Part shown: positions 32,301 to 34,688 of the stretch, piece by piece | How positions within the stretch are numbered: the first letter of the stretch is position 1 | Layout: each line of letters starts with the position of its first letter | Made by a program: the position numbers and the translations under genes | Assembly: GCF_018977255.1 (NCBI RefSeq) | Contig: NW_024704749.1 | Coordinates: forward strand, 21,204,001-21,268,000 | DNA from: Callorhinchus milii | Lineage: Eukaryota | Reading direction: 5' to 3' | Length of the DNA stretch: 64,000 nt | The notes under the pieces: model-generated | What the model was told of the DNA's origin: nothing | The model's input: only the letters and a program-made list of their open reading frames with translations | Database searches by the model: none

Positions 32301-34688
32301 ATGTTTACAGTCAGTGACGTGTCATCATTGGACAGCAGGCAGCCTGCCTTCCGCATCTTCAAGCCCTGGTGGGACATCTTCATGGATTACCTGACCATTA
32401 TCATGTTGATGGTCTCCATATTTGGATCCAGCACACAGCTTTACCTGGATGACACATCCTGCCTGCCCAATTTGGATCAAGATACCTCTGGATTCCGGAG
32501 AGAGAGGAGCTCGATCCAAAACTTACCTGATTTGGATGTTGCTCCTGACGAGAACGATAAAAATATTGTTCATTCCAGCGACGGGAGGAGTACCAGTTTG
32601 CATTACTGGCAGAATCAATATATCAACCAGGTGTGTCAATCTGACGGAATCCCTTGGTTCACCAGGTTTGCGGGCTACGTGATCCTGTTCCACACAACCT
32701 CCCTGATCATTTGTAGCAACTTCTGTTTCACCTATCCCAGGACAAGTTCCAAAGTGGAACAATTCATCGACATCCTTCAAAAATGCTTCCAGTCGCCGTG
32801 GACAAACAAAGCCCTCGCCATGGCAGTCTACAAGGACACCAATGAACTGGAGGATGCCCTCGATACGCAGAGGAGCATTGAAAGTAGTTTGAATAATACA
32901 ATTTCGCCCCAACCATCATCCCTTAAATTGCAGCAGTCCACAAGTTTCCAAGCGCCCATTTCGACCCTGGACAAGAAGGACGCAGAACAGGCCAAAGCTC
33001 TATTTGAGAAAGTGAGGCAATTCAGGCTCCACGTGGAAGAGAAAGACACGATCTATAAATGCTACGTGGGTCAAAACTTGCTGAAAGCTTTACAGTGCAT
33101 AACAATTATCAGCTACATGCCACCCTTTGTCCATGCCGTTAAATTTGATAATCTCTGTGAACCGAATGCAAAGTTGCTGGTTGGGTATTGGACCTTCAAT
33201 TGCACTTACAGCACTTCCCGCTTTATTAAGAAGATCCTTCTGTTTTTCTTGTTTCTGGTAGTTACCTACGGACTCCTCTGTATTCACACACTCCTTTGGG
33301 TTTTCAGAAACAAACTGAAGCAATACACGTTTGAGAAGAGAGGGGACTCGAGCCCCTTTACTGACATCCCTGTTGTAAAGAACGACTTTGCTTTCCTGTT
33401 GCATTTGATTGACCAATACGACACCTTGTACTGCTTGCGCTTTGGTGTCTTCCTGTCCGAGGTCAGCGAGAAAAAGCTGAGAATGTTAACCTTAAACCAC
33501 GATTGGACTGTGGAAAGGACGCGGCAACGCATGATCAAAAACAACAAGGACCAAATAGAGCTGCATCTGTTCATGGTGTCAGGGATTCCAGAGTCGGTGT
33601 ATGATGTGACGGAGCTACAGGTCCTGAGGCTGGAACTCTGCAACGACATGAACATCGGTACCAAAATAAACCAACTCAGCCACCTGGAGGAAATCTGGAT
33701 CTTACACTGTGTCGTTATAGTTTCACCATTGGCTTTGATGTGGCTGAGAAACCAGCTGAAAAAAGTAGGAGTCAAATATCTGGACCGTGATGAAATTCCC
33801 GAGTGGATCTACAAATTGACCAAACTGCAGGAATTGTACTTGACTGGAAAGATGTCCATTGAAAATAAGTTTGTGGAACTGGAATCCATGAAGTCTCTTC
33901 GCTCTTTGAAAGTGCTTTACCTTAAGTCCAATATCTCTAAAATCCCCCCCAGCATTACAGATGTAGCCTACCACCTGGTGAGGTTCTGCATCCACAACGA
34001 CAAGACCAAGCTTCTAAACTATCACATCGTGAAGAAGATGGTCAACTTGACCCAGTTGGAGCTGCACAACTGTGAGTTGGACAAGATCCCGAGTCTGATT
34101 GCTGCCCTGCCCAAACTTCAACTGTTGGACCTCAAAGGGAACAATCTTTCCAAAATTGATGACGTCGCCAACCTCCAATATATGGAGAAGTTGAACTGCC
34201 TCAAGTTCTGGTTCAACATGATCCGAATCATCCCTTCCAACATCACTCTCATCAAATCACTGAAGTACCTCTACTTATCTCACAACCTGATTGAGGTTCT
34301 GCCAAATGTACTCTTCACAATTGAGGATCTGCATTACTTGGACGTCAAGAACAACTCCATCACCTTAATTCCCGATGGCATCGCCAAACTCGTCAACCTC
34401 AAGTTCCTCGATGTGAGTTCCAACAAAATTGAAAAGTTGCCAGAGGCACTGTACAAATGTACCAAGCTCCAGACTCTGAAGCTCAACTATAATTTGATCA
34501 CCTCGCTCAGTAAGAGCATCTCAAACCTTTCCCAGCTAAGCCAGCTGGAACTGCTAGGAAACTACATGGAGAAGCTCCCAGTTGAGATTGCCCAGTGCAG
34601 TTTGCTCACTTTGAGTGGACTGATCGTGGATCCAAACATCTTGGAGTTGCTCACTCCAGAAGTGAAACTGGCTATGGGTGGAAGCTAG
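32301..34688 (+). CDS. LRRC8D-like volume-regulated anion channel subunit, extra paralogue 2 (795 aa, single coding exon)
   Basis: Uninterrupted ORF preceded by acceptor ttctccag|atATG. Motifs: MFTVSDVSSL...KPWWDIFMDYL, LDKKDAEQAKALFEKV, KNDFAFLLHLIDQYD, RFGVFLSEVSEKKL, and a full LRR domain. AATAAA at 34809. Confidence 0.92.
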   Translation: MFTVSDVSSLDSRQPAFRIFKPWWDIFMDYLTIIMLMVSIFGSSTQLYLDDTSCLPNLDQDTSGFRRERSSIQNLPDLDVAPDENDKNIVHSSDGRSTSLHYWQNQYINQVCQSDGIPWFTRFAGYVILFHTTSLIICSNFCFTYPRTSSKVEQFIDILQKCFQSPWTNKALAMAVYKDTNELEDALDTQRSIESSLNNTISPQPSSLKLQQSTSFQAPISTLDKKDAEQAKALFEKVRQFRLHVEEKDTIYKCYVGQNLLKALQCITIISYMPPFVHAVKFDNLCEPNAKLLVGYWTFNCTYSTSRFIKKILLFFLFLVVTYGLLCIHTLLWVFRNKLKQYTFEKRGDSSPFTDIPVVKNDFAFLLHLIDQYDTLYCLRFGVFLSEVSEKKLRMLTLNHDWTVERTRQRMIKNNKDQIELHLFMVSGIPESVYDVTELQVLRLELCNDMNIGTKINQLSHLEEIWILHCVVIVSPLALMWLRNQLKKVGVKYLDRDEIPEWIYKLTKLQELYLTGKMSIENKFVELESMKSLRSLKVLYLKSNISKIPPSITDVAYHLVRFCIHNDKTKLLNYHIVKKMVNLTQLELHNCELDKIPSLIAALPKLQLLDLKGNNLSKIDDVANLQYMEKLNCLKFWFNMIRIIPSNITLIKSLKYLYLSHNLIEVLPNVLFTIEDLHYLDVKNNSITLIPDGIAKLVNLKFLDVSSNKIEKLPEALYKCTKLQTLKLNYNLITSLSKSISNLSQLSQLELLGNYMEKLPVEIAQCSLLTLSGLIVDPNILELLTPEVKLAMGGS

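What the first reader, a model, noticed from the sequence alone, without database searches (positions are those of the whole stretch)
32581..32640. Paralogue 2 has an atypical aromatic pore mouth (H-Y-W replacing D-R-H)
Seen: aligned on the conserved Cys, LRRC8A reads GIKYDLDRHQYNYVDAVCY, paralogue 1 ENQTNLDFQQFFYINNLCY and paralogue 2 GRSTSLHYWQNQYINQVCQ. Paralogue 2 therefore has Y102/W103 at the R103/H104-equivalent positions and lacks both acidic residues. Known: this position is the narrowest extracellular constriction (R in A/B, L in C/E, F in D) and shapes selectivity. Paralogue 2 also has D instead of E at pore-lining position 6 and NFCFTYP for the conserved NFWFK[FY]P. Inference: heteromers could have new permeability, for example cation-pi selection of methylamine osmolytes, or altered inactivation.
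Basis: partly seen in the sequence, partly recalled or inferred. Interest (0 to 1): 0.7.

Follow-up and report, generated by a model that had tools for sequence, protein, structure and literature searches.

The report
Shark-lineage swelling-channel subunit, aromatic mouth
This intact gene encodes an extra LRRC8 cell-swelling channel subunit shared by sharks, rays and a chimaera; the tyrosine flagged at the pore is ordinary and varies between species, but the tryptophan beside it and several other pore-side changes are fixed and likely alter what the channel lets through.

Summary
The quoted sequences and register are right: H101-Y102-W103 (32601-32609) match LRRC8A D102-R103-H104. Y102 is not conserved: Y in the 2 rows of this species, N/I/V/T in all 22 shark and ray rows; it is among the 11 most variable of 313 core columns. 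Y there is also normal for LRRC8D (74 of 164), including this animal's own LRRC8D. H at the D102 site is common in LRRC8B (44 of 63). What is special and fixed: W103 (24 of 24; 0 of 334 other LRRC8 segments), an aromatic at the D102 site, W143 to C/Y, K145 to T, E6 to D, K51 to D/E/N. Published work puts one residue per subunit at the constriction and H104 in the cleft between subunits, so W103 is probably not a filter residue. Best reading: an old cartilaginous-fish, LRRC8D-type accessory subunit that likely retunes LRRC8A heteromers; methylamine selection by cation-pi is possible but unsupported (about 12%). This scan reported the gene pair before on other DNA; nine paper searches found no description. 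Side find: RNA-type contigs show back-splice-like joints for both paralogues.

The parts
32301..34688 (+). Paralogue 2 coding sequence, one exon, 795 aa: pannexin-like TM domain (1-331) plus LRR domain
   Evidence: (PF12534 344 bits, cut-off 25); 6 of 6 coding differences among runs are synonymous
32601..32603 (+). H101 = LRRC8A D102, the 'lid' above the constriction; Y/H/F in all 24 paralogue-2 rows; H also in LRRC8B
   Evidence: position from 10.1101/331207 section 8
32604..32606 (+). Y102 = R103 filter site; Y only in this species, N/I/V/T in sharks and rays; Y common in LRRC8D
32607..32609 (+). W103 = H104 site; invariant and unique to paralogue 2; probably lines the intersubunit cleft
   Evidence: 24 of 24; 0 of 334; cleft position from PMC13596092 passage
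32616..32618 (+). Q106 = N107 site, one helix turn below the filter; aromatic (W/Y/F/H) in all 22 shark and ray rows, Q here
   Evidence: whether it faces the pore is inferred from helix spacing, no paper found
32316..32318 (+). D6 for the family-wide E6 of the pore-lining N-terminus
   Evidence: E6 role from PMC6120214 passages
32442..32453 (+). Y48 (lipid-gate site, shared with paralogue 1) to D51 (K51 site, D/E/N in the clade)
   Evidence: T48Y behaved like wild type in LRRC8A:C; K51 role
32673..32732 (+). TM2 changes: G125 for P126 (lost in both paralogues), C142 for W143, T144 for K145
   Evidence: K145 bonds to the N-terminus in PMC10480491 passage
32299..34412 (+). 2114-base stretch joined tail to head in RNA-type contigs (AG acceptor before 32299, GTGAGT donor after 34412): likely circular RNA
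   Evidence: flanking inverted repeat 32171-32281 / 34842-34952, 79%
26371..28914 (+). Paralogue 1, sister gene, 847 aa
20158..23325 (+). LRRC8A (large coding exon to about 22320, last coding exon ending 23325), the likely partner subunit

Best explanation
[quoted passage not shown] Shown: intact frame, LRRC8 fold, a clade of its own, and the residue pattern. Inferred mechanism: LRRC8A subunits would supply the arginines that favour anions; paralogue 2 would put an uncharged residue of loosely constrained identity (Y, N, I, V, T) at the filter, as C, D and E do. Its fixed differences lie around the filter, not in it: an aromatic lid at the D102 site, W in the cleft between subunits, a third aromatic at either the 103 or the 107 site, loss of the K51 and K145 charges, and a shorter acid at position 6. 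Together these would make a less positive, more hydrophobic outer vestibule, suited to neutral or zwitterionic organic osmolytes as in LRRC8A/D, with changed inactivation and DCPIB block; lipid gating would be kept.
For: Family and fold: PF12534 344 bits; best PDB sequence match LRRC8D 6m04, 775.8 bits, over A 724 and C 684; model pLDDT 82.5, Foldseek top hits all LRRC8. Orthology: quick tree of 55 rows, paralogue 2 (10 rows) 100, paralogues 1+2 100, D-type group 99 SH-aLRT; the genome's own LRRC8D groups with true D and lies on another contig. Constraint: 358 of 791 columns invariant among 22 paralogue-2 rows; 6 of 6 coding differences among runs synonymous against a 35% transition expectation. 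Residues; exactly three aromatics (F/W/Y/H) over sites 102, 103, 104, 107 in 24 of 24 rows against 0-1 in 328 and 2 in 6 of 334 other segments. Roles of sites, from passages: single filter residue per subunit and D's wider hydrophobic filter; D102 lid, D102A slows iodide flux while H104A is not among the mutants named as slower; cleft at H104/Y106 and small DCPIB effect of Q106A; E6 changes halide permeability; K51 in DCPIB binding; T48Y wild-type-like.
Against: No assembly, current or flux was measured. The four-site aromatic count was chosen after seeing the alignment, and the 103/107 swap is a single evolutionary switch. The filter site itself is among the most variable core columns, and the D102 site takes Y, H or F, which fits loose constraint as well. 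In LRRC8A/C, E6 had to be changed in both subunits to change permeability, and T48D in LRRC8D alone had no significant effect: changes in a minority subunit can be silent. LRRC8B also has H at the D102 site. In four runs of one study the coding exon appears as a tail-to-head joined contig that lacks the last 91 codons; how much full-length mRNA is made cannot be read from contigs.
Confidence: 0.6

Rival explanations
1. Same as LRRC8D in practice: the substitutions are structural co-adaptations of a fast-evolving duplicate (for example W103 packing the cleft after loss of D102), and the gene is kept for its expression pattern or LRR partners, not for a new pore.
For: Filter site freely variable; long branches for both paralogues over the whole protein (45-57% identity to D and A in every domain); H104-site and minority-subunit mutations often have small effects.
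Against: Changes hit otherwise near-invariant sites (W143 332 of 334, P126 163 of 163, E6 about 154 of 158) and then stay fixed across the clade; several sites have known effects on permeation.
Confidence: 0.15
2. Modulator rather than conductor: like LRRC8B, paralogue 2 would join LRRC8A and damp or block current; bulky aromatics at the lid, cleft and 107 site would narrow the mouth.
For: Shares H at the D102 site and loss of K145 with tetrapod LRRC8B; D102A lowers flux in LRRC8A. That A/B heteromers carry little current is recalled, not from a call.
Against: Phylogenetically D-type, not B; uncharged filter residue as in conducting C, D, E subunits; T48Y keeps swelling activation.
Confidence: 0.13
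3. One reading: the aromatics form a cation-pi cage that favours methylamine osmolytes (TMAO, betaine), making this the shark TMAO release pathway.
For: Three aromatics in the outer helix in 24 of 24 rows, loss of K51 and K145, and limitation to animals that use methylamines; a volume-activated TMAO efflux in dogfish red cells is in print (title only, in a reference list).
Against: The one residue known to face the axis is not aromatic in any of 22 shark and ray rows; W103 maps to the cleft; LRRC8D already has F/Y at the filter; no flux data, no tissue data; LRRC8A arginines would still sit in the same ring.
Confidence: 0.12

Closest known systems
LRRC8D (VRAC accessory subunit; PDB 6m04, 9dx7)
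   Same: Best sequence match; same D-type branch; single coding exon; MF-T/S start; uncharged filter residue, Y being common in D (74 of 164).
   Different: Separate clade, about 47-57% identity by domain; lies beside LRRC8A, not in the B-C-D cluster; W for Q at the 104 site, aromatic for D at 102, C/Y for W143, T for K145, D for E6, no P126, acidic at 51.
LRRC8B
   Same: H at the D102 site (44 of 63) and often no K145 (H or Y in 47 of 63).
   Different: B keeps R/K at the filter, Q at 104, W143, P126 and E6; different branch.
LRRC8A (obligatory subunit)
   Same: Same fold and domain order; neighbour in tandem.
   Different: Lacks R103, D100, D102, K51; about 45-54% identity by domain; no intron in the LRR region.
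Human circLRRC8A (hsa_circ_0007311, 2165 nt, exon 3; PMC10390409 passages)
   Same: A circle of nearly the same size that starts just before the ATG and ends in the LRR region.
   Different: Here the donor lies inside an uninterrupted reading frame, five codons before the LRRC8A intron position, and cannot be at that place in the 21 shark and ray rows (Leu follows); not validated by RNase R or raw reads.

Membership tests
LRRC8 (VRAC subunits) | Pannexin-like four-helix TM domain (PF12534) | tested here: met
   344 bits against cut-off 25, profile 1-346
LRRC8 (VRAC subunits) | C-terminal leucine-rich repeat domain | tested here: met
   LRR_8, LRR_4, LRR_14 over cut-off; model and PDB matches
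LRRC8 (VRAC subunits) | Extracellular cysteines of both loops | tested here: met
   C54 and C112 invariant in 58 rows; both EL2 cysteines aligned
LRRC8 (VRAC subunits) | E6 and Q14, conserved in all five human subunits (not family-defining by themselves) | tested here: inconclusive
   Q14 kept; position 6 is D (21 of 22 rows), a conservative change
LRRC8 (VRAC subunits) | Assembles with LRRC8A and gives swelling-activated current | not testable with these tools
   needs expression; no complex prediction was run
LRRC8D orthologue | Groups with canonical LRRC8D | tested here: not met
   own LRRC8D (C5) is in the canonical D clade (98); paralogue 2 is in a separate clade with paralogue 1 (100) (quick tree)
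LRRC8D orthologue | Lies in the B-C-D tandem | tested here: not met
   B, C, D on G000:C5; paralogue 2 on C8 behind LRRC8A
LRRC8D orthologue | F/Y at the filter within D/E-F/Y-Q-Q-Y | tested here: not met
   H-Y-W-Q-N here; Y/H/F-N/I/V/T-W-Q-Y in relatives
Back-spliced circular RNA | Tail-to-head joint at canonical splice sites, absent from DNA | tested here: met
   joint 34412 to 32299 listed for X1 and X3; AG and GTGAGT; run X6 is linear over 32254-34923
Back-spliced circular RNA | Covalently closed (RNase R resistant; not exon repetition by trans-splicing) | not testable with these tools
   contigs only; library type is a guess

The most novel reading that the evidence does not exclude
Cartilaginous fishes have a dedicated VRAC subunit whose outer helix forms an aromatic cage (D102 site, W103, and the 103 or 107 site) and has shed the K51 and K145 charges, so that LRRC8A/paralogue-2 channels preferentially release TMAO and betaine: the molecular identity of the shark volume-activated methylamine pathway and a natural test of how LRRC8 subunits set osmolyte choice.
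Probability: 0.12. Interest if true: 0.8.

Novelty: new variant of a known kind. Interest (0 to 1): 0.4.

Why it matters
What makes one VRAC pass chloride and another pass taurine, inositol, cGAMP or cisplatin is still open, and the five mammalian subunits sample few residues at the pore. Paralogue 2 is a natural variant, kept since chimaeras and sharks split, that changes several near-invariant pore-side residues at once in animals with unusual osmolyte loads. It gives a short, ranked list of swaps (W103, H101, D51, T144, C142, D6) and shows that Y102 is the wrong target. As sequence alone it is a lineage-specific paralogue of a well-known family, already annotated 'LRRC8D-like' in databases.

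Tried and rejected
Y-W as a conserved pair: rejected, only W is conserved. H for D102 as unprecedented: rejected by LRRC8B. Y48 as a gain-of-function lipid-gate change: rejected, T48Y was wild-type-like. Pseudogene or assembly error: rejected. A bony-vertebrate orthologue: none among the best 120 of 1058, best 120 of 746 or best 150 representatives; the lungfish, perch and other 'D-like' rows fall on another branch; only listed hits were seen, so absence is not shown. The careful tree did not finish; only the quick tree (SH-aLRT, no bootstrap) is used, and the place of paralogues 1+2 relative to lamprey D is unresolved (87). No complex prediction was run: an LRRC8A-LRRC8 pair would tend to pass by likeness to solved heteromers. 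No run is on record as RNA ('no RNA holder listed'); tissue is unknown, and runs X10-X13 with next to no words say nothing. The upstream exon of paralogue 2 was not found: no forward joint into 32299 was among the rows shown (tables cut). Paper searches without result: 'LRRC8F' 0; skate/taurine/trimethylamine 0; LRRC8A+N107 0; LRRC8 + cartilaginous fish 5, and LRRC8+phylogen+shark+paralog 6 (2 listed), none on these genes by title or by the passages read. PMC5016109 (inactivation residues) was not held. The 2012 Abascal and Zardoya survey of LRRC8 evolution was not seen and might mention fish paralogues; no supplements were read. Loci L023-L026 were fetched for synteny of other paralogues and not analysed.

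Full report
Observation. The window holds LRRC8A (from 20158), paralogue 1 (26371-28914) and paralogue 2 (32301-34688) in tandem on the + strand. H101, Y102 and W103 of paralogue 2 lie at 32601-32609 and align without gaps to D102-R103-H104 of mouse LRRC8A and D-F-Q of human LRRC8D. An AlphaFold2 model from a 58-row alignment (mean pLDDT 82.5) starts the outer pore helix at residue 100, and its top Foldseek matches are LRRC8 structures. Five public runs cover these codons with no other letter listed.

What the gene is. The best database relatives at 57-60% identity over residues 1-400 are shark and ray proteins named 'LRRC8D-like'; the only other member of its 90% cluster is labelled Callorhinchus milii. 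In a quick maximum-likelihood tree of 55 rows (careful search unfinished; SH-aLRT only) paralogue 2 forms a clade of 10 rows (100) with the window's protein sister to nine elasmobranchs, paralogue 1 does the same (7 rows, 100), the two join (100), and the pair sits in a wider D-type group (99). This genome's true LRRC8D is elsewhere, in the B-C-D cluster on contig C5, and groups with canonical D. A Narcine gene model fuses paralogue 1 and 2 in the same order, so the tandem is old. The duplication therefore predates the chimaera-shark split (inference from the tree). No bony-vertebrate member appeared among listed hits. All 6 coding differences among the laid runs are synonymous.

The R103 site reads Y 2 (both this species), N 10, I 9, V 2, T 1 and is among the 11 most variable of 313 core columns (22 rows). 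Y there is also ordinary: among 358 E1-helix segments found by pattern in the roughly 500 proteins held, canonical LRRC8D has F 90 and Y 74 of 164, and paralogue 1 has Y in 11 of 22; this animal's own LRRC8D has Y. H at the D102 site is found in 44 of 63 LRRC8B segments. The D100 acid is missing from most LRRC8D. So two of the three letters in 'H-Y-W' have precedents, and the filter letter is not held. The A and B groups were assigned by their 103/104 letters, so those two columns say nothing for A and B.

What is special. W at the H104 site is in 24 of 24 paralogue-2 rows and 0 of 334 others; Y or F at the D102 site in 17 of 24 and 0 of 334. Over sites 102, 103, 104 and 107 every paralogue-2 row has exactly three of F/W/Y/H, against none or one in 328 and two in 6 of the 334 others; the third sits at 103 in this species (Q at 107) and at 107 in all 22 elasmobranch rows. 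I chose these four sites after seeing the alignment, and the swap happened once, so this is a lead. Other clade-fixed changes at sites near-invariant elsewhere are W143 to C/Y, K145 to T, E6 to D, T44 to S, and loss of P126 (shared with paralogue 1); K51 becomes D, E or N and T48 becomes Y.

Where these residues sit, from papers (passages or named sections only). [quoted passage not shown] D102 lies above R103 like a lid; D102A, Q105A and Y106A slowed iodide influx, and R103A and H104A are not named among the slower mutants (10.1101/331207 section 8). D102 and L101 form a shallow cleft between monomers (PMC8831520); H104, Q105 and Y106 are placed near intersubunit clefts, and the matching Q106A shifted DCPIB IC50 only from 2.1 to 3.1 uM (PMC13596092). 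E6 mutants change iodide permeability, but only when both subunits carry them (PMC6120214). K145 bonds to the N-terminus (PMC10480491). K51 flips between pore and interface (PMC10049205) and is implicated in DCPIB binding. T48Y behaved like wild type (10.1101/2022.07.31.502239). I found no paper on N107; that it faces the lumen is inferred from helix spacing.

How it most likely works. Shown: intact LRRC8 gene, own clade, residue pattern. Inferred: the protein joins LRRC8A, probably as the minority subunit as in A:C and A:D; A's arginines keep the anion bias; paralogue 2 adds an uncharged filter residue whose identity matters little, an aromatic lid and cleft, and fewer positive charges deeper in the pore. 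The likely result is an LRRC8D-like, osmolyte-friendly channel with shifted inactivation and drug block (0.6). Rivals are no real difference from A/D (0.15), a damping subunit like B (0.13), and a methylamine-selective aromatic cage (0.12). For the last, a volume-activated TMAO efflux in dogfish red cells is in print (Koomoa 2001; title only, in the reference list of PMC13524769), but nothing here ties it to this gene.

RNA. No holder is on record as RNA. Four runs of one study (X1-X4, RNA guessed) each give one 2144-letter contig covering exactly 32299-34412; the joint 34412 to 32299 is listed for X1 and X3 and the same record is seen for X1, X2 and X4. The ends are an AG acceptor two bases before the ATG and a GTGAGT donor after codon 704; run X6 is linear across both; a 111-base inverted repeat pair flanks the stretch, though such repeats are very common here. 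X1 and X4 also show a joint 30544 to 26370 with GTAAGT and AG, spanning paralogue 1. Linear pieces across the donor exist in X1, X2 and, in a second study, X5. These are best read as back-spliced circles and imply that both genes are transcribed and spliced; contig depth cannot give their share. Human LRRC8A makes a 2165-base circle from the matching exon (PMC10390409 passages). The paralogue-2 donor cannot be at that place in the 21 elasmobranch rows, so it is probably a lineage-specific by-product.

Novelty. The proteins are annotated 'LRRC8D-like'; nine paper searches returned no description of this clade, but most subscription papers are not held. This scan's earlier unreviewed notes report the same gene pair in other genomes; none lay near this window. 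Verdict: a real, unnamed variant subunit; the flagged feature is half right. Interest 0.4.

Noticed in passing
window 32299-34412: Tail-to-head joined 2114-base contig in 4 of 4 runs of study P1, at a canonical acceptor and an in-frame GTGAGT donor; likely a circular RNA paralleling human circLRRC8A. Read round from the ATG it would give 704 residues plus a 31-residue tail.
   Followed up: partly
window 26370-30544: Second back-joint (X1, X4) from a GTAAGT donor at 30544 to paralogue 1's acceptor; a 4175-base circle would hold the whole paralogue-1 frame. The exon ending at 30544 may be paralogue 2's 5' exon; inverted repeats flank it.
   Followed up: partly
G000:C5:17.83-17.90 Mb, C8, C29:1.70 Mb, C87, C493/C763/C959: The genome holds at least nine LRRC8 genes plus near-identical fragments; filter residues are R (A, B), L (C), Y (D, paralogue 2), F (paralogue 1), H (C5 extra), I (C29), P (C87).
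   Followed up: partly
G000:C87:17815-18925 (L006, L013, L021): A D-like gene whose frame is broken in this assembly; it groups with lungfish and perch 'D-like' proteins.
   Followed up: no
window 26371-28914: Paralogue 1 has R at the N107 site in 21 of 22 rows (all but this species, which has F), a possible second-tier positive charge one turn below the filter.
   Followed up: no
window 32460-32600: Paralogue 2's first extracellular loop has no N-glycosylation sequon (also none in 4 of 5 orthologues checked and in the own LRRC8D), whereas paralogue 1 has four and LRRC8A two.
   Followed up: no
P0272 (Narcine bancroftii record, 1743 aa): A database gene model fuses paralogue 1 and paralogue 2; probably an annotation merge, possibly read-through splicing.
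   Followed up: no
window 36044-50010 and beyond 53500: Exons that look like PHYHD1, an intronless DOLK-like frame (48418-50010, - strand) and NUP188-like exons follow, as at the human LRRC8A locus; these names are recalled from the translations, not tested.
   Followed up: no
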